Below are positions 10,521-46,562 of a stretch of DNA of 64,000 nt, one piece after another. A program made the position numbers and the translations under genes. The DNA is taken from contig JAUVVB010000001.1 of assembly GCA_030604825.1 (NCBI GenBank), positions 56,702 through 120,701 of the forward strand, in the 5' to 3' direction. This DNA is from Chloroflexota bacterium (lineage in GTDB: Bacteria; Chloroflexota; Dehalococcoidia; E44-bin15). Positions within the stretch are counted from its first letter, which is position 1. Each line of letters starts with the position of its first letter. Under the pieces are notes generated by a model, which saw only the letters and a program-made list of their open reading frames with translations, had not been told where the DNA came from and did no database searches.

Positions 10521-11081
10521 TTACCTTCCCTGAACCAGGGAAAGGAACTCAGCGCGGGTAGCAGCCTTGCTCCGGAAAAGGCCCCGGGTGGCCGAGGTGA
10601 TGATGTTGCTCCCCGGCTTCTTCACCCCCCTGATGGTCATGCACATGTGCTCCGCCTGGATGATCACGGCAACGCCATCGGGCCTGACGGCCTCCCGAAT
10701 GGCCTCAGCGATCTGGGTGGTGAGCCTCTCCTGAAGCTGGGGGCGGCGGGAGAGGACCTCCACCACCCGCGCCAGCTTGCTGGCACCGACAACAGGCCCA
10801 TTGGGGATATAGCCAATGTGAACCACCCCGAAGAAGGGGAGGAGGTGATGCTCGCACATGGAAAAGAAGGGGATGTCCTTCAGGATCACCATCTCCTGGT
10901 GCCCCTCCTCAAAGCTTACCGCTAGTTCCTCTCTGGGGTCGAGGCCCACCCCCTCGAAGAGCTCGGCGTACATCTCGGCAATGCGCCTCGGGGTACCCAC
11001 TAAACCCTCCCTTTTGGGATCCTCACCTATGGCCTCGATTATGGAGAGCACCGCCTTTTCAATCTTTGCCTGGTCCACCAA
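10521..11081 (-). CDS. folE: GTP cyclohydrolase I
   Basis: ...[16 protein letters not shown]...[22 protein letters not shown]...; start moved to GTG/TTG at 11078/11081 behind GAAAGGAGG, which follows the stop of the upstream gene; the track ORF extends to 11135. Confidence 0.8.
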
Positions 11082-11091
11082 TGGCCTCCTT

Positions 11092-11670
11092 TCAGCGTTT
11101 ACCGTAGACCTTTCTGTCCAGGTGTCGGATGGCATCCTTTGCTGGCATGGTATAAAGCTCCGCCCCGAGGTAAAGGGCAGGGGCGACTCGTTCTAGATCG
11201 AGCGTCTGCTCCGGGGTAAAGACATCCTCGTCGAAGTGAGAGGCAACCACCTCCCCCACAAACCAGACGTGATCGCCATAGGTTTTGTGTTCCACCAACT
11301 TACACTCGTACGAGGCATAGGCATCCCGCAACAGGGGCGCCGATGTCTTCAGCGGCTTCTCCCTGGCGATGTCAAACCGGTGGAACTTGTCCACCTCCCT
11401 CCCCGAGCTGCCCCCCACCGATGCGATGAGCTCCGCCTTCTCCACGGGCACGAAGTTTATCCCAAATTCCCCGGCCTCCACTATCAGGTCATGGGTGAAC
11501 CGCTTGGGGGAGATGGCAACCCCGTAAAGGGGAGGGGTGAAGGAAAGGGGGCAGTGCCAAGCGGCCGCCATGGCATTGTCCCTGTCCCCGGCGTGAACGG
11601 TGATGATGATGGCCACCCTCGGATAGTGGTGAAAATACTCCCCTGCGCCTTCCATGCTCACTCTGGCCAT
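11092..11670 (-). CDS. flavin reductase-like domain protein (NAD(P)H-flavin oxidoreductase)
   Basis: 192 aa; [49 protein letters not shown], typical flavin_reduct fold. Confidence 0.7.
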
Positions 11671-11690: not shown

Positions 11691-12602
11691 TTATATGGCA
11701 ACGGACAGGGCGGAGGGCAGCACCCAGAAGCTTGCCGGCGTCTCCCCTAGAAGCTCGCCGTCAGCCTGAACCAGCAGCCTCTCCACCGAGTCAACCCTGA
11801 TGCTCTTCCCCCGGTAGAGGGCAAGCTTGGGATGGGTGATGTGGGTGCCCCGATAGACCTTGGGGAAGGTCCTCAGCACCTCCAGTTTGCCCACATCCCC
11901 AATGATGATCACATCGAGAAGTCCATCACAGAGGTCGGCATCGGGGGCGATCTTCATCCCCCCTGCAAAGTAGCGCCCATTGTTGACGATGATGGAGAAG
12001 ATCCGCCTCTCCTCCCCCACCCCATCGATCTCCACGCTCACCCCCTTGTTGCCATAACCGCCAAGGGTGCGCAGCAAGCAAATCACATAGGGCATGGTGC
12101 CCTTAATCCTCCTCAGGGAGGAACGCCTGAAGCGCTCCACCACGGCGGCATCAAAGCCCAAGCCCGCGGTATTGATGAAAAGGCGGCGCACCCTTTCATC
12201 ACCCCTCCCATACTCCACAGCGCCAAGATCAATGGTGACCTCTTTGAAGTTCGAAAACAGGCGGCAGGACTGGGTATAGTTCCCCGGGATGCCCAGGCTG
12301 CGAACGGCGTCGCCCCCCGTCCCCATGCTGATGATGCCCAACGTCGTCCTGCCCTTCCCCTCCTCATCCACCAGGCCATTTACCACCTCGTTCACCGTGC
12401 CATCGCCACCCACAGCGATCACCAGCTCATACCCCTGGACCACCGCATCCCGGGCCAGCTGGGTGGCATGCCCCACCCCCTGGGTGAACTCATGGTCAAA
12501 GGAGAGGCCCGCTTCCTGAAGCAGACTTCTGATGTGGGGCCACCTCTTACCACTGAGCCCACACCGACAGGTGGGGTTGATGATTACCTTAGCCCGAGAC
12601 AT
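11691..12602 (-). CDS. diacylglycerol kinase catalytic-domain lipid kinase (YegS/BmrU family)
   Basis: 303 aa; KVIINP..., IAVGGDGTVNEVVNGL, ...GGDAV... Confidence 0.75.
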   Translation of the reverse strand: MSRAKVIINPTCRCGLSGKRWPHIRSLLQEAGLSFDHEFTQGVGHATQLARDAVVQGYELVIAVGGDGTVNEVVNGLVDEEGKGRTTLGIISMGTGGDAVRSLGIPGNYTQSCRLFSNFKEVTIDLGAVEYGRGDERVRRLFINTAGLGFDAAVVERFRRSSLRRIKGTMPYVICLLRTLGGYGNKGVSVEIDGVGEERRIFSIIVNNGRYFAGGMKIAPDADLCDGLLDVIIIGDVGKLEVLRTFPKVYRGTHITHPKLALYRGKSIRVDSVERLLVQADGELLGETPASFWVLPSALSVAI

Positions 12603-12604
12603 CT

Positions 12605-13657
12605 CTAAACCAAGCCCAAGGATTTCTCGATGGCGGCTATATCCGCGGGGAGCTCGGCGGGGGGCTGGGCAATCTCCACCGCGGTATCGGGGTCCTTAAG
12701 CCCGGAGCCGGTGATGATGCAGACCACCTTCTTGCCCTTTAGCTCCAGGCCTTGCCTTGCCACCTTCACCAGGCCAGCCACGGAGGCAGCCGAGGCTGGC
12801 TCCCCAAAGATGCCCTCAGAACTGCCCAGAAGCCGATAGGCGGAAAGGATCTCCTCATCGCTCACCGAGTCGATGCGCCCCCCCGATTCATCCCTTGCCG
12901 CCACCGCCCCCTTCCAGCTTGCCGGATTGCCGATGCGGATCGCCGAGGCCACCGTCCTGGGCTCCTCGATGACCCTCCCCTGGACAATGGGAGCAGCCCC
13001 CTCGGCCTGAAACCCCATCATCCCGGGGGTGCTCTTTGACCGGCCTGCCCTCTGATATTCCAAAAACCCCTTCCAGTAGGCGGTGATGTTTCCCGCATTG
13101 CCCACAGGGATGAAAAGGTAGTCGGGGGCATCCCCCAGGGCATCGACGATCTCAAAGGCAGCGGTTTTCTGCCCCTCGATGCGATGGGGGTTGATGGAAT
13201 TGACCACGGTGATGGGGTACCTCTGGGTCAGGGCGCGCACCAGGCTTAGTGCATCATCGAAGGAGCCATCGATGGAGATGATCTTTGCCCCATAGGCTAG
13301 AGCCTGGGCCAGCTTTCCCAGGGCAATTCCCGCCCTGGGGACGATGACCAAGGTTTCAAGTCCAAATCTGGCCCCGTAGGCCGCCGCCGAGGCGCTGGTG
13401 TTTCCCGTGGAGGCACACATGATGGCGCGGCTTCCCCCCTCCACCGCCTTGGCCACGGCCACCACCATGCCCCGATCCTTGAACGAGCCGGTGGGGTTGC
13501 ACCCCTCTAGCTTGAAGTAGAGCTCGCCGCAGCCGATCTCCTTCTCCAGCCGCTGCGACCTCACCAGGGGCGTATCCCCCTCCCCCAGGGTGATCATCGG
13601 GGTCTTTGGGGTTATGGGGAGGAACTGACGGTATCTTAATAGAACGCCTTGTTTCAT
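12605..13657 (-). CDS. thrC: threonine synthase
   Basis: 350 aa; TPLVRSQRLEKEIG...LYFKLEGCNPTGSFKDRGMVVAVAKA (PLP-lysine motif). Confidence 0.85.
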   Translation of the reverse strand: MKQGVLLRYRQFLPITPKTPMITLGEGDTPLVRSQRLEKEIGCGELYFKLEGCNPTGSFKDRGMVVAVAKAVEGGSRAIMCASTGNTSASAAAYGARFGLETLVIVPRAGIALGKLAQALAYGAKIISIDGSFDDALSLVRALTQRYPITVVNSINPHRIEGQKTAAFEIVDALGDAPDYLFIPVGNAGNITAYWKGFLEYQRAGRSKSTPGMMGFQAEGAAPIVQGRVIEEPRTVASAIRIGNPASWKGAVAARDESGGRIDSVSDEEILSAYRLLGSSEGIFGEPASAASVAGLVKVARQGLELKGKKVVCIITGSGLKDPDTAVEIAQPPAELPADIAAIEKSLGLV

Positions 13658-13659
13658 TT

Positions 13660-14388
13660 TTACCTTTTATCGCCCGGCAACCGAATTCGATTTGGGTAAT
13701 CTTTCTTGTACCTATTGATTATCCCTCCAATTTGCCTTTTTAGTTCATCCCTTTTCGTTAATAGGAAGAATATAATCTCATTGTCGGATATATATTGGCA
13801 AATCATCTGTTTGCTCCTCAACTCATTCGACCTTCTGCTAAGGTATTCTTTATGATCCTCTCTCGGAAAATGTTGGTATATCATCAGTATTGAATCTTCA
13901 TCCATACGGTCATAAAGATATTTAACTTCGCTACGTAGAAGATGCTTCTCTTTCGAATTTTGAATTTCTAATCCAATATCAGGGTCTACAAAGACCAAAG
14001 ATTTATGCAGGAATCCTTCAGGTATATTTTTGAAATAATCGCCTCTTATCCTATTATTGAAATATTCATGACCTTTATAAATACGTATTTTAAAGCCCTT
14101 TAGTTTAAAGTATTTCTCTATCTCCGTAAAATCTCTTTTATCCCCGTCTATTTCTTTGTCTATGTATGGCTTCAGAAATTCTATTAGCTCTTCGTTCTTC
14201 GTCCCTGGCCTACCAAATTCCTTAGCCCTATCAAAATCTCTCTTATTACCATCTCTTCTTCTAGGGTCATTTTTTGTTAGCATGGGAATGAAGGTAAATC
14301 CTTGTAAGGAGCCCATCTCCTTCAAAATCCGTTGAATCAAATCATACTTAAATAAATCCCTAACATCTCCAAAATATTGGTTCTTCAT
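13660..14388 (-). CDS. AT-rich, Lys-rich hypothetical protein; divergent RlmJ/DUF519-like fold candidate with non-canonical DPDI in place of DPPY
   Basis: Likely start ATG 14388 (MKNQYFGDVRDLFKYDLIQRIL; the track start is a GTG at 14412). Three co-linear RlmJ-like motifs: YFGDVRDLFKY vs HAGNxADVLKH, SLVFVDPDIGLE vs GLILIDPPYE, ILMIYQHFP vs IYALWYP. Codon usage is very different from both neighbours. Confidence 0.45.
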   Translation of the reverse strand: MKNQYFGDVRDLFKYDLIQRILKEMGSLQGFTFIPMLTKNDPRRRDGNKRDFDRAKEFGRPGTKNEELIEFLKPYIDKEIDGDKRDFTEIEKYFKLKGFKIRIYKGHEYFNNRIRGDYFKNIPEGFLHKSLVFVDPDIGLEIQNSKEKHLLRSEVKYLYDRMDEDSILMIYQHFPREDHKEYLSRRSNELRSKQMICQYISDNEIIFFLLTKRDELKRQIGGIINRYKKDYPNRIRLPGDKR

Positions 14389-14419
14389 AACTCGTTCACA
14401 TCCCCACTGCACATGTCCT

Positions 14420-15712
14420 TTAATCCTCGACCCTGATGAAGCTGGAGATTTGCTTTACCACATCCAGCTTCTCTATCTGCTTGAGCGCCCTTTGCATCGC
14501 CTGCTCCTGGGCGGGGTAGGTCATGAGCACGATCTCGGCCACATCCGCCGAGATATCGCTTTCCTTCTGGATCACCGAGGAGATGCTTATCTGGAGGTCG
14601 CCCAGGATCCTGGAGATCTGCGCCAATACGCCGGGGCGGTCATCGGTGATCATCCTGAGATAATATCTGGTCTCGATCTCCCAGATGGGCCTTATCCTCT
14701 TTGTGGGGTCAAGCCTCAGCCTGGGGGTGATGCTCACCCCGAGGTTGATCCGCTGCGCCAGATCGATGACATCGGCAACCACAGCGCTGGAGGTGGGCAG
14801 GGCACCAGCCCCCTCCCCGTAGAAAATGACCCTCCCCACCAGGTCGCCTTCCACCTGAACCGCATTATAGACGCCATCCACCTTGGCCAGGAGGAGCTCC
14901 TCGGGGATAAAGACGGGATGGACGCGAACCTCGATGGAGCCATCCTCCTCCTTGGCGATACCAAGGAGCTTTATGGCGTAGCCCAGCTCATTGGCATATC
15001 TAAAGTCATGGGAAGAGAGGCGGGAGATCCCCTCGTGGTAAACATCCTCAGGGTGAACCTGGGCGTGGAAGGCCAGGGTGGCCAGGATGGCAAGCTTATA
15101 GGCAGCGTCGATGCCCTCAATATCGTTGGCCGGGTTGGGCTTGGCATAGCCCCGCTGTTGTGCCTCCCTCAGGGCGGAGGAGAAATCCAGCCCCTCAGCG
15201 GCCATCCTGGTGAGGATATAGTTGGTGGTGCCGTTGATGATGGCGTGAATCGCTGAGATCCGGTTGGCCAAGAGGTCCTGCTTGAAGGGGGCAATGAGGG
15301 GGATTCCCCCACCCACGCTGGCCTCATAAAGGATGTCCACCTTCTTCTCCCGGGCCAAGGAGAGGAGCTCAGGGCCATGTTTGGCGATGACCTCCTTATT
15401 GGCGGTGACCACGTGCTTCCCCCTGGCCATGGCCTCCTTTATAAGCTGAAGGGCCGGGCTCTCCCCGCCGATAACCTCGATGACGATGTCTATCTCGGGG
15501 TCATCGAGGATTTCCCGCGGGTCGGTGGTGAGCAGGCGACGCTCCACCTTAAACGGGCGTTTCTTTGAGGGGTGTCGCACCAGTATCTTTCTCAGCCTCA
15601 GCGGGCAGCCCACCTGATGGGAAAGGGCCTCCGCCCTCTCCACCAGGGCCCTGGCCACCCCACCACCAACCACCCCCAAACCCATCAGCCCGATGCCAAT
15701 GCTCTGCCTCAC
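14420..15712 (-). CDS. hom: homoserine dehydrogenase (with C-terminal ACT domain)
   Basis: 430 aa; IGIGLMGLGVVGGGVARAL NAD-binding N-terminus, EGAGALPTSSAVVADV, C-terminal ACT-like region. Confidence 0.85.
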   Translation of the reverse strand: MRQSIGIGLMGLGVVGGGVARALVERAEALSHQVGCPLRLRKILVRHPSKKRPFKVERRLLTTDPREILDDPEIDIVIEVIGGESPALQLIKEAMARGKHVVTANKEVIAKHGPELLSLAREKKVDILYEASVGGGIPLIAPFKQDLLANRISAIHAIINGTTNYILTRMAAEGLDFSSALREAQQRGYAKPNPANDIEGIDAAYKLAILATLAFHAQVHPEDVYHEGISRLSSHDFRYANELGYAIKLLGIAKEEDGSIEVRVHPVFIPEELLLAKVDGVYNAVQVEGDLVGRVIFYGEGAGALPTSSAVVADVIDLAQRINLGVSITPRLRLDPTKRIRPIWEIETRYYLRMITDDRPGVLAQISRILGDLQISISSVIQKESDISADVAEIVLMTYPAQEQAMQRALKQIEKLDVVKQISSFIRVED

Positions 15713-38864: not shown

Positions 38865-41021
38865 TTATGTCGCCTTCCTCCTGATCACCACAAAGCTCGT
38901 TAAGGCTACAACTAGCACCACACCGGCTACTCCACCAATAACGCCCCAGGGCACTCCAGAGCTGTCATCTGTTGGCGTTGGAGTAGGAGTTGGCGTAAGC
39001 GTAGGAGCTGGCATTGGTGTTGGCGTGGGCGCAGGTGTAGGTGTAGGCGTGGACGCTGGTGGCGTAGGTGTAGGTGTGGACGCTGCTCCTCCGCCACCAC
39101 TGGCAGGCATCGGCGTGGGTGTTAGTGTTGGGGTCGGGGTCGGGGTAGAACCACCACCGGCGGGTGTTGGTTTTGGGATCGGGGTAGAACCACCGAATTC
39201 GAAGGCACCGATGTCTGGGGCAGAGCCTTGATATGGCCAGGGGGAGTTCGCGTCGTTGAAGCCGGGGAGGACTATGCCTTTACCTATGCAAGGGGAGGTC
39301 AATTGTAAGCTCAGGTCACCATTAGCTAGGTCGACGAACTGGCTGTCGGCTGAGATTCCATGTTTCTCATAACCAGTAGCTGCTCGAAATTCCCCAAAGG
39401 TGGTATATGCGTCAGCTACGCCTGTTTGCCATTTCGCAAATCTGGTTGAAGATCTAGTATATAAGTTGTCGTAATCATAGTCACAGTAGCTCCACTCCGG
39501 GTCAGTATCGCCATTTTCTATAACATACCCGCCAACTTGAACAAGATTATTACGAGAAACTACGTTATTTAACTTGGCATTATTTCCGAAATGGCCTATT
39601 CCCCTCGAATTGCGGGAGGTGTAGATAGTGTTGTGGTATAGATAGATAGTTCCGGTGGAACTATTGCCCATCTTGAGACCGGCGTCAGCAAAATCGACGA
39701 AGACGTTGCGAAAGACATAGTATGGCCCAACCGTAACTGGAGCCAAACCCAGACCCATGTAGCCCATAGAGTCGGACCAGGAATTCTTGTAGAAATTAGC
39801 CCATATCGCCACATTGACATTGTCGCCTTCTATCTCCAACCCATCATCCCATGGACCTTCGATATAGTTATCATGGATGAATATGTCCTTGTAGCTGTTG
39901 CCCCCTATACCGTCCTTGAATCCCTTGCCAATGATGGTGTTATTACGGATCACAATTACCGAATTGCCAGGTTTGCCTTGATTCCAGAAGAACACCCCGA
40001 ACCTTTGGGCGCGTTTCTCACCTGTGTAGGTGATATGATTCCTCTGGATGAGGATATCGTGGCAGGGGTGTCCTCCGTCTATACCGTCCCTTATCAACAC
40101 TCCGGAGCAAGCCCATTGATTCCCAGGGTCGATCATAATGTTATCTTCGATAATGATGTTGTTGGTATCATAATCAAGCAGAATATTGCGGCCGTCACCG
40201 GTGCTAAAAGGATCCCTAAGCTCCAATCCTTTAATCCTGATATAGCTGGAGCTGGCGATAAGGATGTTGTGGCCTCGACTCTTCTGGCCATCTATTACTG
40301 CCTTGTCATCTAAGCTATAGCTCTGAAGGGTAATGTAGTTGTTCTCGGCCCCCGATCTTCCATTGATAATTACTTCCTCGTTGTAGATTCCTGGCATTAT
40401 CAGGACTTTATCTCCCGCCTGCACTATATCCACAGCATGCTGGATTGTGCTGAAGGGTTCGGCTTCAGTTCCAGGATTTGAGTCGTCTCCATCAATAGCT
40501 ACATAATAGGTATTTCCATTAGATGGTGGATTGTCATTTCTCGTCCTGATTGTTGCTGTGACCGGACTACCGGAGACACCGTCAGGGTCGGTATAGGTAA
40601 CCCTTACTTCGTATTCGGTATCAGGCTCAAGCCAGAAGATAATGCCTCGCCATTGATACTTGAAGGCGTTATCCAAATATAGCGTCTGGTGCAGGTCGCC
40701 GTCATAATATGGCACCTGCTCCCTTCTATCCACAGTGAACGGTGTTACTTGTTTCCATACTGGGGAGCCGACCTCACTGTACTCCAAGGTGGCCTGGTTA
40801 TTTCCGTTATCATCTCCGCTGAAGTTAGAATACACGGAAATACCTTCAAAGGCTGGGACCAGGGACAGGGTGCCTACAGTGGTTGACTTCCCCTGAGCCA
40901 GGGCTGGGGAAGCCATGCCAGCCATCAGCAGTGAGGCTAGAGCTAGGGCTACCAATACGATGTAAAGCACTTTCCTTTCATGCTTCATCTTCATGGCCAA
41001 GGGTCGAGAAATCACAACCAT
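38865..41021 (-). CDS. cell-surface protein: signal peptide, right-handed parallel beta-helix (pectate-lyase/NosD-like) domain, Pro/Thr-rich linker, C-terminal TM anchor
   Basis: 718 aa; MKMKHERKVLYIVLVALALASLLMAGMASPALA signal; beta-helix repeats rich in N/G/I; (TPTP)n; C-terminus WGVIGGVAGVVLVVALTSFVVIRRKAT. Confidence 0.7.
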   Translation of the reverse strand: MVVISRPLAMKMKHERKVLYIVLVALALASLLMAGMASPALAQGKSTTVGTLSLVPAFEGISVYSNFSGDDNGNNQATLEYSEVGSPVWKQVTPFTVDRREQVPYYDGDLHQTLYLDNAFKYQWRGIIFWLEPDTEYEVRVTYTDPDGVSGSPVTATIRTRNDNPPSNGNTYYVAIDGDDSNPGTEAEPFSTIQHAVDIVQAGDKVLIMPGIYNEEVIINGRSGAENNYITLQSYSLDDKAVIDGQKSRGHNILIASSSYIRIKGLELRDPFSTGDGRNILLDYDTNNIIIEDNIMIDPGNQWACSGVLIRDGIDGGHPCHDILIQRNHITYTGEKRAQRFGVFFWNQGKPGNSVIVIRNNTIIGKGFKDGIGGNSYKDIFIHDNYIEGPWDDGLEIEGDNVNVAIWANFYKNSWSDSMGYMGLGLAPVTVGPYYVFRNVFVDFADAGLKMGNSSTGTIYLYHNTIYTSRNSRGIGHFGNNAKLNNVVSRNNLVQVGGYVIENGDTDPEWSYCDYDYDNLYTRSSTRFAKWQTGVADAYTTFGEFRAATGYEKHGISADSQFVDLANGDLSLQLTSPCIGKGIVLPGFNDANSPWPYQGSAPDIGAFEFGGSTPIPKPTPAGGGSTPTPTPTLTPTPMPASGGGGAASTPTPTPPASTPTPTPAPTPTPMPAPTLTPTPTPTPTDDSSGVPWGVIGGVAGVVLVVALTSFVVIRRKAT
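38950..39190. repeat. low-complexity GGTGTxGGCGTxGG tandem repeats encoding the Pro/Thr linker of the surface protein
   Basis: Repeated ggtgtaggtgtaggcgtggacgct-type units; a similar tract lies at 10200-10330 in the lipoprotein gene. Confidence 0.5.
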
Positions 41022-41500
41022 GTCTTAACCGAATACTTACGGTCACTCCTGTAGATAATTTACAGCAATATACGATATCATACAATAGTCCATGACTGCA
41101 TATTATATCGTCGCCATAGCTACCAGCAATTATGCTGTTTAATCAAACAGGTCAATACTTATTTGGTACCCTTTTGACCTAGGCGGAGTAGACAGGAAGT
41201 ACTAGGAGTGGAGCTGGTCAGCTCATGGGAAAAGGCAGGTGAAAATAATAACTCAGGGAGGCCAACAAACCCTTTGACCTCAAGAAGAAACGTTGGGGAT
41301 GATGTCATCGCCTCAGCCATACCTTGCTCGCTTCCTGCATTATCGCCACATAAGCCCGCTAGCGGCCCCAGCTACGTCATCAAGCATAAGCTTGACAAAA
41401 ACAGAAAGAAGGATTAAGGCAATGCCCCGCGTGTAATATTCCTACCTCGCCCGGCGGTGGGTTCGTTCTAACGGAGGAAACTGGATCCAATTCGAGAGGG

Positions 41501-42631
41501 TTACAAAGTTCTTTCATTACCTCTGAGAGTGGCCATTACGTTTTTGGCAATCTCAGCGCCTACTTTTTCCCATGAGTACTTTTCGAGAACAAGACGTCTA
41601 CCATTTTCTCCCAGAGCCTGGCATTTCTCCGCATTCCCTATTAGCTCGACTAATACCTCCGATAGATGTTCCACATCGCCACACTTCACAAGGTGCCCAG
41701 TTTCTCCCTCTAAAACCAAATCAGGTATTCCCTCAACGTCTGTAGCAACGACGGGAAGTCCATGAGCAAATGCCTCTAAGCATACGATTGGAAAAGAAGG
41801 ATCTAGCTTGGTTGGAAGACAGAACACGGAAGCCCTTTCATAGTAATGATTGAGCCTTTCGAGGGGAACTCGACCAACTACATCGCAACTGGGAATATTC
41901 AATTTAGGTGAGCATCCCACAACGGTGAGTCGAGCGGTAGGATGAGCTTTTAGAACCCGTTTGAATGCTTCTACCAGCTCCGGTCCACCCTTCCTTTCCC
42001 AATCCATCCCCACAAACAAGATGTTCTTATTTTCGTATTTTCCTTTATCCACTTCGATGTTTGTTCCTATATTGCTACCTGAGTGCACACAAATAACTTT
42101 ATCTGAAGGACAAGAATAGTCTTCTATAATAGACCTTGATATATTACTACTCCTGGTAAAGTTAAGTGTGGCATTGTGATAAATGGTTCTCTCCAGTTCA
42201 ATCCAGCGCGGGCTATACAGGTCTTTTTTCTCAAAATCTGGATAAGATAGATTTGCCAGGTGAGTGTGGTCAGTATAGACATAGTGCGGCAAGCCTTCTT
42301 TACTTCCATCATATAATGATTGAAATTGAAAGGAAAACCGGTACTCATCTTGCGAAAGGAGGTTGGACACCAAGGTTTTTATTCTTCTAAATATATATGT
42401 CGTTCTCCAAAAACATTCGCTGATTTTTTTCCTGCCCAGCAGTATTTCCGAGCCATACTCTTTCAAAATAAAGAACATGTTTACCAGGATTACAGTTTTT
42501 TTGCTTCTAATTAAATCCCCAACATGTATTACATCAATGTCCCAATCGGGAAAGTGCTCTATTAGCGTTTGCATAACACTGCCCTTCGAGGGGTGAGCCC
42601 CCCGTGTTATGAAAGCAAATTTTCTTGCCAT
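41501..42631 (-). CDS. glycosyltransferase family 4 (GT-B, RfaB/WcaL-like); AT-rich
   Basis: 376 aa; C-terminal GT4 region CLPTKLDPSFPIVCLEAFAHGLPVVATDVEGIPDLV (E-x7-E); markedly lower GC than the flanks. Confidence 0.75.
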   Translation of the reverse strand: MARKFAFITRGAHPSKGSVMQTLIEHFPDWDIDVIHVGDLIRSKKTVILVNMFFILKEYGSEILLGRKKISECFWRTTYIFRRIKTLVSNLLSQDEYRFSFQFQSLYDGSKEGLPHYVYTDHTHLANLSYPDFEKKDLYSPRWIELERTIYHNATLNFTRSSNISRSIIEDYSCPSDKVICVHSGSNIGTNIEVDKGKYENKNILFVGMDWERKGGPELVEAFKRVLKAHPTARLTVVGCSPKLNIPSCDVVGRVPLERLNHYYERASVFCLPTKLDPSFPIVCLEAFAHGLPVVATDVEGIPDLVLEGETGHLVKCGDVEHLSEVLVELIGNAEKCQALGENGRRLVLEKYSWEKVGAEIAKNVMATLRGNERTL

Positions 42632-42660
42632 AGAGGACCTCCTTGAGAAACCCTGCCTTC

Positions 42661-42760
42661 ATCCATTGTGCCTGAGAGTAGTCTCTATGTTTTTAACTAT
42701 CTCAGCGCCTACTTTTTCCCAGTGTAGACTTGCCAGGTGAGTACGGTCAGTATAGAAAGC
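42661..42760 (-). pseudogene. ~100-bp remnant of a second GT4 paralog (internal fragment joined directly to the last ~20 codons)
   Basis: 42661-42720 is about 85% identical to 41515-41575 (...WEKVGAEI(V/A)KN...); 42731-42758 matches 42254-42281 (YTD(R/H)THLA); the intervening ~700 bp of the gene is absent. Confidence 0.55.
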
Positions 42761-43946
42761 CTTCAGTCCATAAACCAGTTATATGCCAGTTGCGTATATC
42801 AAAGATTTGCTCGTACTTACCCCCTGTTAGGTCTTTTACAGTAAAATTCCAAGATCCACTCGTTTTTTCATCGACTGAGAAACCAAATTGATGCAACTGG
42901 TCAAATACATCTTGAGCTAGAGAATCCCTTGGATTCCCCAAGAACCGAAACCGTCCCGCTTTTTTGGCGTAATCTTTGAGTATTGCATACAACAAAAGAG
43001 ATGTTGCATATCTGTCTTCCGAGAGAATGTCTGAAATGGATGCAAACCCCTGAAACAATACAACAAACGCATATGCCCGTAATTTACCACCTTGGTAAAC
43101 TTGATACTCATCGTATTTAAGGAATGGATGTTCTCGAACTCTCCACCTAAGATATTTTTGATCATATTTTAGAGATACAATATTGTTATGTTTTGACTTT
43201 ACCCTTTCATAAAGTTCTTTCAACGAACGTTCGTCTATCTCCCCTTTTTTGATTTCATATCCTGCTTGTTTTTGAATTTGAGGAATGGTTCTGCTATTTC
43301 TTATTCTCATAAAGGAAGATTGTGTAATTAACTTTCCTACAGAACCAATTCGACGCCAAAGCGGGGTTGTGGTTCCGTAGGGATTGGTTCGTAGCCTTGA
43401 AACTATATCAGCCCAAATGTTGCCAGGTCGCAGCCACACTTGAATGTCTGGGTAAAGAGTATATCCAAGTTTTTGAGGCACTTTTACTAAAGGTCCGAGA
43501 CCCCATAAGAATTGAATTCCACGGTCAATGGAATGTTTTTCTACATATCCCGCTAACTCTAGCAAAAGAGTGGTTCCTCTATAAGGTGGCAGTATTAACA
43601 GGCTTTCATTTTTTCCGGACAGGACACACTCAGTCCCAACCTCCATATAAATAGGGATCATGGCTCTTGTTGCGATTAATTTGTCACCATCTTTTGCAAA
43701 TGCGAATACTGCCTTCCCGGGCATGCATGTTTCATACTCCCATAGCCAATCTTCGGGTCTTCTTCTTGTTCCATAATGGGAGTTGTGAAAATCGACCATA
43801 TCCAAAGCATCTCTTAATGTGGCCAATCCAAATTCAATTCTTCGTTGTTCAGGCTCTGAACCGGGAAAGTCTTCTATTTGTGTTTGCATAGCGCTGGTTT
43901 TTGTGGGGTGAGAACCCCATGTTATGAAAGCAAATCTTACACTCAT
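42747..43946 (-). CDS. chimeric ORF: first ~27 codons (plus upstream leader) of a GT4 paralog fused in frame to an AT-rich acyltransferase-like (FemAB/GNAT-fold?) body
   Basis: N-terminus MSVRFAFITWGSHPTKTSAMQTQIEDFP parallels MARKFAFITRGAHPSKGSVMQTLIEHFP of ORF 41501-42631 (~85 bp of DNA homology including the 5' leader); the rest is unrelated; the last 4 codons plus stop lie in GT-derived remnant sequence. Confidence 0.5.
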   Translation of the reverse strand: MSVRFAFITWGSHPTKTSAMQTQIEDFPGSEPEQRRIEFGLATLRDALDMVDFHNSHYGTRRRPEDWLWEYETCMPGKAVFAFAKDGDKLIATRAMIPIYMEVGTECVLSGKNESLLILPPYRGTTLLLELAGYVEKHSIDRGIQFLWGLGPLVKVPQKLGYTLYPDIQVWLRPGNIWADIVSRLRTNPYGTTTPLWRRIGSVGKLITQSSFMRIRNSRTIPQIQKQAGYEIKKGEIDERSLKELYERVKSKHNNIVSLKYDQKYLRWRVREHPFLKYDEYQVYQGGKLRAYAFVVLFQGFASISDILSEDRYATSLLLYAILKDYAKKAGRFRFLGNPRDSLAQDVFDQLHQFGFSVDEKTSGSWNFTVKDLTGGKYEQIFDIRNWHITGLWTEGFLY

Positions 43947-43997
43947 ACAGCACCTCCCTAAGGAATTTCGCCTACTTTGAAGTACGCCTCCTTAACT

Positions 43998-44918
43998 TCA
44001 AAGTAGAGGTTTTTTTAGACCGTACACTATGCCCTTGTTTCTACGGGCTTCAAATCCGTCCCTGTTTAGCCAAGAAACAATGGTCCTGTAAGTTTCTTTC
44101 TCTCCCGCTTTATGATATGTTGCGATTGCCAATTTTACATCGTTGTCCTTCAAGGTTTCCTTCATCCCTTTGTATGCCTCGATCTCCGCACCTTCGACGA
44201 TCATTTTTATGAAATCAACCTTGTTTACACCCAATTCCCTCAATATATTATCCAATGTATCTACTTCGACCTCCATAAATCTACCCCTGCAACGTACGAA
44301 ACTATGCCCTGATGTATTCTCTTTGATAAAAAGCTTTAGCCTGTCCTTTCTGCTCCAAACGCCCTTCGGAACTATCACCACATTGTTTAGCCCGTTTGCC
44401 CGAATATTTCTTTCCAAGACCCTTAAATTATCCATCTCAGGCTCTATTGCAACGACCATGCCCCCATCCCCCACAGTTTTTGCTGCTCTCACCGTAAACG
44501 TCCCTATGTGTGCCCCTACATCTACAACGATGTCACCCTTTTTGACCTTATAATACTTTTGGTATATCTCGTCCCTATACTGCTGCACTAACTGGCGCCA
44601 AAGGGTTCCAAAGTATTCAATTGTCACTATTTTAGTGAGTATGTGCTGATTTCCATACCTAGAGCGAATTCTAGTAGAAAAGTCAAGTATGCTGTCTTGT
44701 TTTTCCCCGTCTGGCTGAGCATAAAACTTAACGCCATCGTTAAGCTCCACGCGCAAGGATCCGTCTTCTAGCTCTTCTACCTGAGTTATAATTTTACTTA
44801 AGGCATCTAGAGGATTATAATACCTGAAAAGAAGGCTTCTCAGAAAATCTTTAAATCTACCTTCAGGGAGTATACTACTAATTGCCTTTCTTCCCCATTC
44901 TATCAATGTATGCGTCAT
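43998..44918 (-). CDS. FkbM-family methyltransferase
   Basis: DIVVDVGAHIGTFTVRAAK SAM-binding motif, 306 aa; AT-rich. Confidence 0.7.
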   Translation of the reverse strand: MTHTLIEWGRKAISSILPEGRFKDFLRSLLFRYYNPLDALSKIITQVEELEDGSLRVELNDGVKFYAQPDGEKQDSILDFSTRIRSRYGNQHILTKIVTIEYFGTLWRQLVQQYRDEIYQKYYKVKKGDIVVDVGAHIGTFTVRAAKTVGDGGMVVAIEPEMDNLRVLERNIRANGLNNVVIVPKGVWSRKDRLKLFIKENTSGHSFVRCRGRFMEVEVDTLDNILRELGVNKVDFIKMIVEGAEIEAYKGMKETLKDNDVKLAIATYHKAGEKETYRTIVSWLNRDGFEARRNKGIVYGLKKPLL

Positions 44919-45020
44919 TTATACACCTCCACAATTACCCTTTTGCCCCAAGCCTCTGAGAGCGGCAGGTGGCCCCCTGGTTCTCCCGGTAAATATATTT
45001 GACCCGGGTATCTGCAAAGC

Positions 45021-46562
45021 TCATTTGGTTTCCTCATGCGGTGTCTCGATGACGGGTGGGCCTTGCCTCCAAACCAAAGGCACTTTAGCCATAACCAACT
45101 TTGCATATGGCTTGACCATCTCCAGAGCAAGTTCAATCATTTCATTGAGGGCTTCGGTTCTGGCCGCCTTCAATGTTATGAAGTAGATGACAGCACCTAA
45201 CAACACTGAACTGACCAGGAGCCCAACATCAGGTAAAGTGAACAAGCTTGCTGCCGCATAGCGAAAGGCAAGCAGGGTCACGGCCATCACTACAGCGCCA
45301 AAGGCGGCGGGGCGCAGTGAGGCCAGGTAATCTCTCATCCTCAAACCGATAAGTCGGTTGGCAAATATCTGGCGAGTGAGCCACATGATAGCAGCAACCC
45401 CTGAAACACCCAGGGCAACACCTACTGTTCCGAATCTGACTCCAATGAGCAGGCACGGAACCAGAAGGGCAACTGTTACTAGACTTAGTTTCAGCTCAAT
45501 ATCAGGCCTCCCCTTGGACCGCAAAACAGGTCCAACCGTTACGCTGATCGAGGCAATAGCGGCCATGATACAGAGTATCTGCATGGGCAGGATAGCCGCA
45601 GTCCATTTTTGACCAAAAACTACCTTAACCAATTCAGGGGCGACTATAGCTAGCCCAACGAATAAGGGGAGGACAATTAGACAGAGATATGTCACGCTCT
45701 TCGTGAATCCGCGGCGCAACCGCTCATCTTCATCCTGAACTATTGAGAAAGCAGGAAAAGCTACTCTGCCCACAGTCATCCACAGCCCCGTTGCCACGAA
45801 GCCTGCTGTTCTATGCCCCAAGTTGTAGAACCCCAGGGCTGCCGGCATTAAGAATATTCCGATGATCAGGTAGTCTAATCTCTCGGTCAGATACTGAACG
45901 ACCCTGCTTCCGGTCAAGTTGGAGCCAAACCCCCACAAATCCCTCAGGCTTTTGAGGCTGAACATAATAGACGGGTGCCAACGGCATAGAGCCCACCTCA
46001 GGATGGCAAGGGCAAGGTGGCTTGCCAGGTTGCCCAGGACAAGGCTCCAGACCCCAAAGCCGGCAAATGCCAGGGGCACCGCTACAGCCAGGTAAGTAAC
46101 TCCCTGTCCAATTTCACCGATTGAGAACCTGAAAAACTGTAACCTCTTCCGCAACAGGCTGCTGTGGACAGACCTCAGGGGAGCAATGACGAAGGCTAGA
46201 GAGGAAACCGCCAATATCGGACCGACGAGCTCGTTTCCGAAGAAATCTGCCACAAAGGGAGAGATAGCCACCGTCACAGTGCAGAAGACAAGGCCAAAGG
46301 CCAACCCGGTCCAAAAGGCTGTTGAAAGATGACTGGCGGTTACCTCTTTTCGCTGGATGATAGCTTCGCCAAAGCCCAGATCGCCCATTCGCAGCACTAG
46401 CTCGGTGACGATGATCGCCATGGCGACGATGCCAAAATCCTCCGGGAAGAGCAGCCGGGCCAGAACGATCATGCTTATGAAGCGCAGGCCTTGCCCCAGG
46501 ACCTGGGAGACTCCAAACCAAGTCACCCCGCGCACTGCTGACCTAGTTAGCGCACCGCTCAT
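45021..46562 (-). CDS. wzx: polysaccharide biosynthesis protein / Wzx-type flippase (MOP superfamily)
   Basis: 513 aa, ~12-14 TM; N-terminus AVRGVTWFGVSQVLGQGLRFISMIVLARLL typical of O-unit flippases. Confidence 0.75.
   Translation of the reverse strand: MSGALTRSAVRGVTWFGVSQVLGQGLRFISMIVLARLLFPEDFGIVAMAIIVTELVLRMGDLGFGEAIIQRKEVTASHLSTAFWTGLAFGLVFCTVTVAISPFVADFFGNELVGPILAVSSLAFVIAPLRSVHSSLLRKRLQFFRFSIGEIGQGVTYLAVAVPLAFAGFGVWSLVLGNLASHLALAILRWALCRWHPSIMFSLKSLRDLWGFGSNLTGSRVVQYLTERLDYLIIGIFLMPAALGFYNLGHRTAGFVATGLWMTVGRVAFPAFSIVQDEDERLRRGFTKSVTYLCLIVLPLFVGLAIVAPELVKVVFGQKWTAAILPMQILCIMAAIASISVTVGPVLRSKGRPDIELKLSLVTVALLVPCLLIGVRFGTVGVALGVSGVAAIMWLTRQIFANRLIGLRMRDYLASLRPAAFGAVVMAVTLLAFRYAAASLFTLPDVGLLVSSVLLGAVIYFITLKAARTEALNEMIELALEMVKPYAKLVMAKVPLVWRQGPPVIETPHEETK

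What the first reader, a model, noticed from the sequence alone, without database searches (positions are those of the whole stretch)
13660..14412. AT-rich RlmJ/DUF519-like gene with a broken DPPY motif wedged inside the hom-thrC operon
A 242-250-aa Lys-rich ORF sits between homoserine dehydrogenase and threonine synthase on the same strand, with gaps of only about 31 bp and 2 bp. Its nucleotide composition is far more AT-rich than either flank (for example aaatatttctctatctccgtaaaatctcttttatcc), the classic signature of recent horizontal acquisition. Three co-linear motifs recall the RlmJ (23S rRNA m6A2030 methyltransferase / DUF519) fold: N-terminal YFGDVRDLFKYDLI (compare HAGNhADVLKH), central SLVFVDPDIGLE (compare GLILIDPPYE), and ILMIYQHFP about 36 residues later (compare IYALWYP). 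The methyl-transfer tetrad DPPY is DPDI here, so it may bind nucleic acid or SAM without methylating, or it may be a different enzyme on the same scaffold. A foreign gene inserted precisely into an essential biosynthetic operon, guaranteeing expression, is unusual and could be a selfish or defence-related passenger.
Basis: partly seen in the sequence, partly recalled or inferred. Interest (0 to 1): 0.7.

Follow-up and report, generated by a model that had tools for sequence, protein, structure and literature searches.

The report
Mobile RlmJ-like gene inside hom–thrC operon
A foreign-looking, AT-rich gene wedged between two threonine-pathway genes of a Dehalococcoidia bacterium belongs to a large, unnamed protein family that has the fold of the rRNA methyltransferase RlmJ but a rebuilt active site. 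It behaves as a horizontally exchanged passenger occupying a variable slot in an essential operon, and its biochemical function is still unknown.

Summary
A 242-aa CDS (13660-14388, minus strand; true start ATG 14388) lies 31 nt after hom and 2 nt before thrC. Its GC is 0.35 and GC3 0.37, against 0.60-0.62 and 0.78 in the flanks, which is 4.3 SD below the window mean.

A weak but colinear profile alignment keeps RlmJ's D15-K18...D164-P165 network and its stacking aromatic. DPPY is an invariant DPD-x-G, and the AdoMet ribose-binding segment appears deleted.

The hom-thrC junction is polymorphic in syntenic relatives: empty in three, family gene in five, glyoxalase plus methyltransferase or its remnant in two. 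One pair shows hom 71% but gene 88% nucleotide identity, switching at the hom stop codon, so lateral exchange has occurred. Related copies sit between leuC and leuD and beside HicAB or MNT-HEPN modules.

There is no fixed partner, and the family is almost absent from sampled phages and plasmids. Verdict: a real, selected, mobile accessory gene; a new variant on a known fold.

The parts
13660..14388 (-). CDS of the RlmJ-fold family protein (242 aa; ATG 14388, TAA 13660-13662). The upstream GTG at 14412 is probably not the start.
   Evidence: It is 100% identical to database protein P0001. The N-terminus MKNQYFGD is conserved from residue 1 across 46 diverse members. AF2 model pLDDT 86, pTM 0.88.
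14389..14419 (-). 31-nt hom-to-gene spacer. Its proximal ~21 nt (CAGTGGGGATGTGAACGAGTT) is shared by all hom-context copies. No strong Shine-Dalgarno and no terminator.
14335..14376 (-). Residues 5-18 (YFGDVRDLFKYDLI), the motif-X-like N-terminal segment. G7, D8, D11 and K14 are invariant or near-invariant and are paired by HHalign with RlmJ G11, N12, D15 and K18.
   Evidence: RlmJ residue roles come from PMC3814359.
13972..13986 (-). Residues 135-139 (DPDIG), the motif-IV position. D135-P136-D137-x-G139 is invariant in the whole family and replaces the D164-P-P-Y of RlmJ. The loop that follows (139-145) is the only low-confidence part of the model.
13864..13881 (-). Residues 170-175 (IYQHFP), the motif-VI position. 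Q172 is invariant. Y171 is paired with RlmJ W195, the base-stacking residue.
13658..13671 (-). The last codons of the gene plus the 2-nt gap (GAT AAA AGG TAA AA), lying immediately before the thrC ATG. The ...GDK[RNSI] tail is specific to hom-context copies and supplies the purine-rich region upstream of thrC (inferred translational coupling).
14420..15712 (-). hom (homoserine dehydrogenase), the upstream operon gene.
   Evidence: Pfam Homoserine_dh, NAD_binding_3 and ACT.
12605..13657 (-). thrC (threonine synthase, PLP enzyme), the downstream operon gene.
   Evidence: Pfam PALP. Synteny with L008, L171 and L178.

Best explanation
This is an intact accessory gene under purifying selection, belonging to a large uncharacterised family that shares the fold of RlmJ-type N6-adenine methyltransferases and probably descends from them. 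It is a single-gene passenger that has entered a permissive, polymorphic slot between hom and thrC in one Dehalococcoidia clade. It has no promoter or terminator of its own there, so it is most likely transcribed by read-through from hom (inferred), and its 3' end provides the ribosome-binding region for thrC (inferred). It is exchanged laterally among lineages, including across the bacteria/archaea divide. Mechanistically, the protein keeps the part of the RlmJ/Dam active site that grips and activates the exocyclic amine of a flipped-out base: the D11-K14 pair, D135-P136 and an aromatic residue at the stacking position. It has replaced PPY with an invariant D-x-G and lacks a recognisable AdoMet adenosine/ribose site. 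I therefore infer a stand-alone nucleic-acid (base-directed) enzyme or binder that does not perform canonical AdoMet methyl transfer. The cluster of four invariant Asp residues suggests a bound cation or metal. Shown: fold, conservation pattern, mobility, slot polymorphism. Inferred: co-transcription, substrate class, loss of methyl transfer.

For: Residue pairing: HHalign against an 11-sequence RlmJ profile is colinear over 219 columns, E 0.005. Functional roles of the RlmJ residues are from PMC3814359. The family invariants are D8, D11, T38, D135, P136, D137, G139 and Q172.

Selection: the gene is intact in hundreds of copies, with dN/dS 0.23-0.59.

Accessory and mobile: the slot is empty in L170, L171 and L174, holds other cargo in L172 and L173, and holds the family gene in the window, L178, L008, L045 and L089. 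These states are interleaved on the Hom tree. Window vs L089: hom 71% and gene 88% nucleotide identity, with a sharp switch at the hom stop. The close subfamily has GC 0.27-0.37 in hosts of 0.41-0.60. A Methanophagales copy is 72-73% identical to the window's.

Other operon insertions: leuC-gene-leuD.

Stand-alone: no recurrent partner among 150 non-redundant neighbours.

Expression context: no terminator-like site between hom, the gene and thrC. The protein is basic, pI 9.4.
Against: Sequence homology to RlmJ is not significant by the usual standards: no PF04378 hit and HHalign probability 7%. The residue equivalences therefore rest on a weak alignment plus fold similarity. I could not inspect model coordinates, so the proposed loss of the AdoMet pocket and the clustering of the Asp residues are not verified in 3D. 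No direct evidence shows that the substrate is nucleic acid. The nuclease-like fusion partners are sub-threshold (E 0.03-0.15), and the fusion model failed (pLDDT 36). In Methanoregula and Methanolinea the family matches host GC and is syntenic, so it can also be an ordinary resident gene. No transcript data exist.
Confidence: 0.5

Rival explanations
1. It is still an active AdoMet-dependent methyltransferase (rRNA, tRNA or DNA adenine, or another amine) with an unusual motif IV, that is, a divergent functional analogue of RlmJ or an orphan DNA methyltransferase.
For: RlmJ is the best structural match and every other match is an AdoMet enzyme. The D-K...D-P network essential for RlmJ catalysis is retained. 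A target universal to bacteria and archaea, such as rRNA or DNA, would explain function after cross-domain transfer.
Against: There is no glycine-rich motif I and no conserved acidic residue after a beta-2 strand. The profile alignment has a 33-residue gap over RlmJ alphaA-beta2(E118)-alphaB, and the AF2 model has one strand fewer between beta-1 and beta-4. The second Pro and the aromatic residue of (D/N)PP(Y/F/W) are replaced family-wide. No MTase Pfam or NCBIfam model is hit by any of 46 members.
Confidence: 0.2
2. It is a toxin-like or anti-phage effector (a single-gene defence or addiction element) whose retention in the operon is enforced by its own activity.
For: HicB-HicA lies directly upstream in two unrelated host groups. 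HicB-like genes lie downstream in six loci, and MNT-HEPN follows the gene in Methanoperedens. It lies in defence-like surroundings in Methanoculleus (Cas1 fragment, ScoMcrA-like) and on an Azospirillum plasmid. dN/dS is relatively high, up to 0.59. Codon usage is poorly adapted, which would keep expression low. Rare fusions carry PD-(D/E)xK-like tails.
Against: There is no PADLOC match for 46 members. There is no obligatory partner or antitoxin. The window copy has no adjacent TA gene. The family is almost absent from phages, viral contigs and plasmids. Stable syntenic residence in Methanoregula and Methanolinea is atypical for defence genes.
Confidence: 0.18
3. It is a self-propagating (homing-like) gene that directs its own copying into specific junctions of conserved operons.
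For: The pattern resembles free-standing homing endonuclease genes. It is an intergenic insertion between conserved essential genes (hom|thrC, leuC|leuD). It is patchy among close relatives. Its composition is distinct. There is a sharp identity switch at the junction with no co-converted flank. No transposase, integrase, TSD or TIR is present.
Against: The protein has no known nuclease or recombinase domain. The same slot also holds unrelated cargo (glyoxalase plus MTase), which points to a generally permissive site. Divergence tracks the flanks in three genomes. Only one clear lateral event was documented.
Confidence: 0.05
4. It is a missing threonine-pathway enzyme, for example a non-orthologous homoserine kinase, given its position between hom and thrC.
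For: Its position is exactly where thrB often sits. Other family members lie next to ahcY-metK and leu genes.
Against: It is absent from three syntenic relatives that have the same operon. It has foreign composition. It has no kinase fold. Dehalococcoides fills the ThrB gap with HomK, according to bioRxiv 10.1101/2024.10.14.618325. The family occurs in many unrelated contexts.
Confidence: 0.02
5. It is an integron-type gene cassette inserted at a secondary site, or a decaying remnant with no function.
For: It is a promoterless single ORF in operon orientation. A GTTRRRY-like heptamer lies about 30 nt upstream in 4 of 13 related loci.
Against: No RYYYAAC...GTTRRRY attC pair lies downstream in any of 13 loci. 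No integrase is nearby. The ORF is intact with dN/dS below 1 and strictly invariant residues, so it is not decaying.
Confidence: 0.03

Closest known systems
RlmJ (YhiR; Pfam PF04378), the 23S rRNA m6A2030 methyltransferase, and its Legionella homolog LPL1258 (PDB 2oo3)
   Different: There is no match to the family HMM. DPPY is replaced by an invariant DPD-x-G. Y4 and H6 of RlmJ have no clear counterpart. Motif I (DTHAGAG) is replaced by (I/V)PMLT. The segment carrying the AdoMet ribose ligand E118 appears deleted. The taxonomic range differs (anaerobic archaea and Dehalococcoidia, against Proteobacteria). It is mobile and AT-rich instead of a core housekeeping gene.
DNA N6-adenine methyltransferases with (D/N)PP(Y/F/W), such as T4 Dam, EcoDam and M.TaqI, including orphan MTases on mobile elements
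   Same: They share the catalytic architecture (motif-X Lys/Thr positioning the motif-IV Asp/Asn) and the lifestyle of a stand-alone, horizontally transferred gene.
   Different: The PPY part and the AdoMet motifs are not conserved. No target-recognition domain is identifiable. No match to any MTase model.
Spermidine synthase and other aminopropyltransferases
   Different: Aminopropyltransferases keep a glycine-rich motif I and the ribose-binding acidic residue, and they have an N-terminal beta-hairpin domain. None of this is seen here.
Free-standing homing endonuclease genes of T-even phages (seg and mob genes), as a behavioural analogy only
   Same: Single genes of deviant composition are inserted between conserved essential genes. 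They are patchy among close relatives, with sharp boundaries.
   Different: There is no nuclease domain. The host is a cellular chromosome. The same slot also carries unrelated cargo. Homing has not been demonstrated.

Membership tests
RlmJ family (PF04378 / DUF519) | Significant match to the family profile | tested here: not met
   No Pfam hit at E<=1 for the protein. PF04378 is not among the families listed for the 39 close members (E<=10, 25 of 27 families shown) or the 46 diverse members (E<=1). No NCBIfam hit. hmmsearch of PDB sequences does not retrieve RlmJ.
RlmJ family (PF04378 / DUF519) | [quoted passage not shown] | tested here: met
RlmJ family (PF04378 / DUF519) | Motif IV 164-DPP(Y/F)-167 | tested here: not met
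   The family-wide invariant is D135-P136-D137-x-G139.
RlmJ family (PF04378 / DUF519) | Motif X catalytic network (D15 positions K18; K18 contacts D164) | tested here: met
   D11 is invariant and K14 is conserved in >=90% of members. HHalign pairs them with D15 and K18, and pairs D135 with D164. The alignment itself is weak (E 0.005). Y4 and H6 have no secure equivalents.
RlmJ family (PF04378 / DUF519) | AdoMet ligands H42 (motif I), S100, E118 (motif II), D143/F145 (motif III) | tested here: not met
   Only F119~F145 is conserved. There is no conserved His or Gly-rich loop after beta-1. A 33-residue gap covers the E118 segment. Position 117 (~D143) is variable. This was not checked on 3D coordinates.
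RlmJ family (PF04378 / DUF519) | m6A2030 methylation of 23S rRNA helix 72 | not testable with these tools
   Requires biochemistry.
Known anti-phage defence or toxin-antitoxin systems | Match to a defence-protein model, or a fixed partner gene | tested here: not met
   PADLOC gave only chance-level hits. Among 150 non-redundant immediate neighbours no family recurs more than 3 times; HicA, HicB/UPF0150, MNT and XRE-HTH are the commonest.
Integron gene cassette | attC site (RYYYAAC ... GTTRRRY imperfect palindrome) at the 3' end | tested here: not met
   No such pair within 220 nt downstream in 13 related loci. Nothing fits in the window either, where the gap to thrC is 2 nt.
Free-standing homing endonuclease gene | Recognised nuclease domain (LAGLIDADG, GIY-YIG, HNH, His-Cys, PD-(D/E)xK, EDxHD) | tested here: not met
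   No Pfam domain. The fold is a methyltransferase fold.
Free-standing homing endonuclease gene | Presence/absence polymorphism at one precise intergenic site, with gene history uncoupled from the flanks | tested here: met
   However, the site also holds unrelated cargo, and three genomes look vertical.
Homoserine kinase (ThrB / HomK / ThrH analogues) | Kinase or phosphotransferase fold, and presence wherever the pathway is present | tested here: not met
   The fold is an MTase fold. The gene is absent from L170, L171 and L174, which have the same operon.

The most novel reading that the evidence does not exclude
The family is a previously unrecognised kind of self-propagating chromosomal gene. 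In this reading, an RlmJ-derived, base-flipping protein recognises junctions inside highly conserved biosynthetic operons (hom|thrC, leuC|leuD) and promotes its own copying into empty alleles. That would explain the precise, scar-free single-gene insertions, the patchy distribution among close relatives, the sharp identity switch at the hom stop codon, the cross-domain spread, and the persistent AT-richness.
Probability: 0.05. Interest if true: 0.9.

Novelty: new variant of a known kind. Interest (0 to 1): 0.55.

Why it matters
Three reasons. First, it defines a sizeable protein family (about 2,200 clusters at 50% identity) with no Pfam, NCBIfam or PDB assignment. The family appears to have converted an m6A-methyltransferase scaffold to other chemistry. 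The invariant DPD-x-G together with the retained Asp-Lys pair is a concrete, testable active-site hypothesis. Second, it documents single genes being slotted, without scars, into essential amino-acid operons of Dehalococcoidia. There they gain expression and even supply the downstream gene's ribosome-binding site, and the slot's content turns over between close relatives. Third, near-identical versions move between Bacteria and methanogenic or ANME Archaea in anoxic sediments without any recognisable vehicle. The gene also stays AT-rich in 56-60% GC hosts despite apparently long residence. That puzzle bears on how amelioration and codon selection act on transferred genes.

Tried and rejected
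(1) Integron cassette: I searched 13 loci for attC core-site pairs and found none.

(2) Transposon or integrase insertion: no TSD or TIR around the gene. Only one integrase was found among 150 neighbours.

(3) Missing homoserine kinase: rejected on patchy distribution and fold.

(4) Functional link to the KTI12/AAA_33 kinase plus PHP phosphoesterase. This context is confined to one Dehalococcoidia group, where those genes precede ahcY-metK. The single fusion protein P0039 could arise from a 1-nt change at an overlapping stop/start, so I did not rely on it.

(5) PD-(D/E)xK fusion partners: only sub-threshold Pfam hits for P0260 and none for P0268 or P0324. The single-sequence AF2 model of P0260 was unusable (pLDDT 36).

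(6) Carriage by viruses or plasmids: 2 weak hits in IMG/VR, 0 in phages, 1 distant hit in plasmids.

(7) Sequence-level proof of RlmJ homology. Single-sequence HHalign was insignificant, and global mode misaligned. Local profile-profile mode gave a colinear alignment at E 0.005, which is suggestive only.

(8) The afdb50 fold library was unavailable.

(9) My first reading of the NJ tree, that hom-context copies arose by independent insertions, was weakened by later evidence. Those copies share a leader and a GDK tail, and nucleotide identities are congruent with the flanks for the window, L178 and L008.

Full report
**1. The observation**

The ORF is real. Alignment with homologs shows that the family's N-terminus, MKNQYFGD, is conserved from its first residue. 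The CDS therefore starts at ATG 14388, not at the upstream GTG 14412, and runs 13660-14388 on the minus strand, encoding 242 aa. There are 31 nt after the hom stop codon and 2 nt before the thrC ATG.

- Gene composition: GC 0.348, GC3 0.366.
- Flank composition: hom 0.598/0.789 and thrC 0.624/0.781.
- Deviation: 4.3 SD below the mean of same-size windows over the 64 kb.
- Codon adaptation to the neighbouring genes: 0.40, against 0.61-0.71 for those genes.
- The quoted AT-rich string is at 14108-14143 with one mismatch.

No terminator-like site separates hom, the gene and thrC. The promoter-like matches inside the gene are what AT-rich DNA gives by composition. Co-transcription with the operon is therefore inferred, not shown.

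**2. What the protein is**

It matches nothing in Pfam, NCBIfam, PADLOC or PDB sequences. PHROGs gave only two weak partial hits, which I take to be chance. It is not an orphan, however.

- 643 relatives were found in the word-indexed database.
- An exhaustive HMM scan of 1.84 billion representatives found 2,220 clusters at E<=1e-3 and 195 at E<=1e-30.
- None of 46 diverse members hits any Pfam family.
- Named sources are Dehalococcoidia and methanogenic or ANME archaea: Methanophagales, Methanoperedens, Methanosarcina, Methanoculleus, Methanoregula and Methanolinea.
- More distant members (24-30% identity) occur in Acidobacteriota, Gemmatimonadota, Proteobacteria and others.

Across this breadth only D8, D11, T38, D135, P136, D137, G139 and Q172 are invariant. 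G7, K14, Y15, G47, R115, F119 and E154 are conserved in at least 90% of members.

**3. Fold and relation to RlmJ**

An AlphaFold2 model built on 39 homologs is confident (pLDDT 86, pTM 0.88). The only disordered stretch is the loop 139-145, directly after DPD.

- Foldseek agrees (RlmJ E 1.2e-5, TM 0.44).
- The viral structure library adds only generic methyltransferase-fold hits.

At sequence level the link is weak. I then assembled an 11-member RlmJ profile from divergent homologs on large replicons. With it, HHalign gives one colinear alignment over 219 columns (family 3-239, RlmJ 6-276), with E 0.005 and probability 7%.

I read this alignment against the RlmJ structure paper (PMC3814359). 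It pairs D11 with D15, K14 with K18, D135-P136 with D164-P165, Y171 with the base-stacking W195, and F119 with F145. The AdoMet contacts fare differently.

- The motif I His has no conserved counterpart.
- A 33-residue gap covers alphaA-beta2-alphaB, which includes the ribose ligand E118.
- The AF2 model correspondingly shows only one strand between beta-1 and beta-4.

My reading is that this is a remote RlmJ relative. It kept the apparatus for holding a flipped base's amino group, but it rebuilt motif IV into an acidic D-P-D-x-G loop and lost or remodelled the AdoMet adenosine site. This is an inference. I could not examine the model's coordinates.

**4. Genomic behaviour: the hom-thrC slot**

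A graded series of Hom relatives all share the synteny SHMT-S6-SSB-S18-rotamase-hom-[X]-thrC.

| Locus | Hom identity to window | Content of X |
|---|---|---|
| L170 | 83% | nothing |
| L171 | 82% | nothing (2-nt gap) |
| L174 | 70% | nothing (8-nt gap) |
| L172 | 76% | glyoxalase plus a UbiE-type methyltransferase |
| L173 | 75% | 59-aa remnant of that glyoxalase |
| window, L178, L008, L045, L089 | 100, 85, 76, 75, 67% | the family gene |

On a Hom tree these states are interleaved. L045 (family gene) and L173 (glyoxalase remnant) have 92% identical Hom proteins. The gene is therefore accessory, and the slot turns over.

All hom-context copies share the proximal leader CAGTGCGGATGTGAACGAGTT. 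They also share a C-terminal GDK[RNSI] tail whose codons sit just before the thrC ATG. This argues for one original insertion.

Nucleotide identities are congruent with the flanks in two comparisons, which is consistent with vertical descent:

| Comparison | hom | gene | thrC |
|---|---|---|---|
| window vs L178 | 82% | 84% | 84% |
| window vs L008 | 76% | 77% | 79% |

The window/L089 pair is discordant. hom is 71% identical, while the gene is 88% identical. Identity jumps at the hom stop codon, and the gene's dS is only 0.24. The window's closest protein relatives also carry non-hom-type tails: P0002 at 85%, and a Methanophagales protein at 72-73%. So lateral exchange is superimposed on vertical descent.

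dN/dS of 0.23-0.59 indicates purifying, though not strong, selection. No direct or inverted repeats bracket the insert.

**5. Other contexts**

- In Dehalococcoidales the gene lies between leuC and leuD, inside leuA-leuC-X-leuD-leuB.
- In another Dehalococcoidia group it lies between an APH-like gene and a KTI12/AAA_33 kinase-PHP-ahcY-metK block, usually preceded by hicB-hicA.
- In Methanoperedens the arrangement is ppsA-X-MNT-HEPN.
- In Methanoculleus it is hicB-hicA-X, in a defence-like region.
- In Methanoregula it follows a 2-oxoacid:ferredoxin oxidoreductase operon.

The close subfamily is AT-rich everywhere (0.27-0.37 in hosts of 0.41-0.60). The Methanoregula and Methanolinea copies match host GC and are syntenic within their genera. 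The family therefore includes long-resident members as well as a mobile branch.

Among 150 non-redundant immediate neighbours no family recurs more than three times. The commonest are HicA, HicB/UPF0150, XRE-HTH and MNT. Copies outside the hom context share a leader of about 65 nt with a GGCGAAC-N5-GTTCGTC palindrome, a TATATA stretch and a GGAGG. This is plausibly their own promoter, operator and RBS, and it is missing in the window. The family is essentially absent from IMG/VR, phage and plasmid collections.

**6. Mechanism and rivals**

Best-supported account, confidence about 0.5 for the whole statement (higher for the genomic part, lower for the biochemical part):
- The gene is a stand-alone, basic (pI 9.4), RlmJ-derived protein.
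- It binds a nucleobase or nucleotide in its cleft but does not carry out canonical AdoMet methyl transfer.
- It is carried as a promoterless passenger, expressed from the hom operon and coupled to thrC.

Rivals:

| Rival | Confidence |
|---|---|
| Still-active methyltransferase with an odd motif IV | 0.2 |
| Toxin or defence effector | 0.18 |
| Homing-like self-propagating gene | 0.05 |
| Missing homoserine kinase | 0.02 |
| Integron cassette or pseudogene | 0.03 |

The homoserine kinase idea is refuted by the empty slots, by the fold, and by the published HomK solution for Dehalococcoides. The integron cassette is refuted by the absence of attC, and the pseudogene by the evidence of selection.

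Fusion proteins were examined: a P-loop kinase, an ESCO-type acetyltransferase, a thiolase fragment, and three tails with PD-(D/E)xK-like motifs. They are too rare or too weakly supported to decide between these accounts.

**7. What remains unexplained**

If the gene has resided in the window, L178 and L008 lineages since they split (hom dS 1.1), its GC3 should have drifted toward 0.78. Instead it is 0.37-0.38 in each, and its dS is about half that of hom. Either selection holds synonymous sites AT-rich, or copies are repeatedly overwritten from an AT-rich pool. It is also unresolved whether the empty junctions are ancestral or the result of precise deletions.

**8. Verdict**

'Recent' is not.
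- The family is uncharacterised and its active site is a new variant on a known scaffold.
- Its habit of sitting inside essential operons in a polymorphic slot is unusual.
- The function is unproven.
- Interest 0.55.

Noticed in passing
window 38865-46562: A second AT-rich island (minimum GC 0.387 for a 729-nt window near 42.6 kb). It encodes what looks like a surface-glycan cluster: a 718-aa beta-helix surface protein with a Pro/Thr-rich linker and a membrane anchor, a glycosyltransferase, a 399-aa unknown protein, an FkbM-type methyltransferase and a flippase-like membrane protein. The annotation is by eye only.
   Followed up: partly
L172:4814-5911 and L173:4815-4994: In two syntenic relatives the hom-thrC slot holds different cargo. 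L172 has a glyoxalase-fold gene plus a UbiE-type class-I methyltransferase, at near-host GC (0.51-0.55). L173 has a 59-aa truncated remnant of that glyoxalase.
   Followed up: partly
L018, L029, L031, L040 (family gene at about 6001-6680 in L018, L029 and L040; 943-1623 in L031): In Dehalococcoidales the same family sits between leuC and leuD, inside leuA-leuC-X-leuD-leuB. This is a second essential amino-acid operon carrying this passenger. In L040 two small opposite-strand ORFs lie between the gene and leuD, and a HicB-like match falls in that interval.
   Followed up: partly
window 11691-12602 (-): The DAGK_cat/YegS-type lipid kinase gene just downstream of thrC is present in the window, L171 and L172. 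It is absent from L008, L173 and L174, which otherwise share the synteny. This is a second presence/absence polymorphism in the same operon neighbourhood.
   Followed up: no
L004:7930-8000; also L090, L092, L094, L097, L098, L091, L096 upstream of the family gene: A conserved leader of about 65 nt with the palindrome GGCGAAC-N5-GTTCGTC, a TATATA stretch and a GGAGG. It travels with the gene into unrelated contexts and is possibly a promoter, operator and RBS. It is absent from the window copy.
   Followed up: partly
L010:6867-6941: In the Methanophagales locus a tRNA-Met gene lies 156 nt downstream of the family gene. tRNA genes are common integration sites.
   Followed up: partly
P0320 (348 aa; protein only): A family member is fused in frame to the C-terminal half of a thiolase (Thiolase_C, E 7e-49). 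Either the gene has inserted into and split a thiolase gene, or this is a gene-calling or assembly artefact.
   Followed up: no
L037:6701-7780, L041:10047-11714, L043:4916-5962, L063:5349-6464, L064:4591-5706: A short adenylosuccinate-synthetase-like (PurA-like) gene lies within a few kb of the family gene in five loci assigned to five different phyla (Saccharibacteria, Bacteroidales, Nanoarchaeota, Actinomycetota, Gemmatimonadaceae). This could be a cross-phylum association or coincidence.
   Followed up: no
L177:6016-6690 (Azospirillum ramasamyi plasmid NZ_CP029836.1): This is the only plasmid-borne (distant, 22% identity) family member found. It sits among DUF3644, sce7726-family, ImmA/IrrE and sigma-factor genes, an accessory or defence-like neighbourhood.
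   Followed up: no
window 10521-11135 and 11092-11670 (-): The listed GTP cyclohydrolase I ORF (204 aa) overlaps the flavin reductase ORF by 44 nt. Orthologs in L008, L171, L173 and L174 are 186 aa, so the true start is probably about 18 codons downstream.
   Followed up: no
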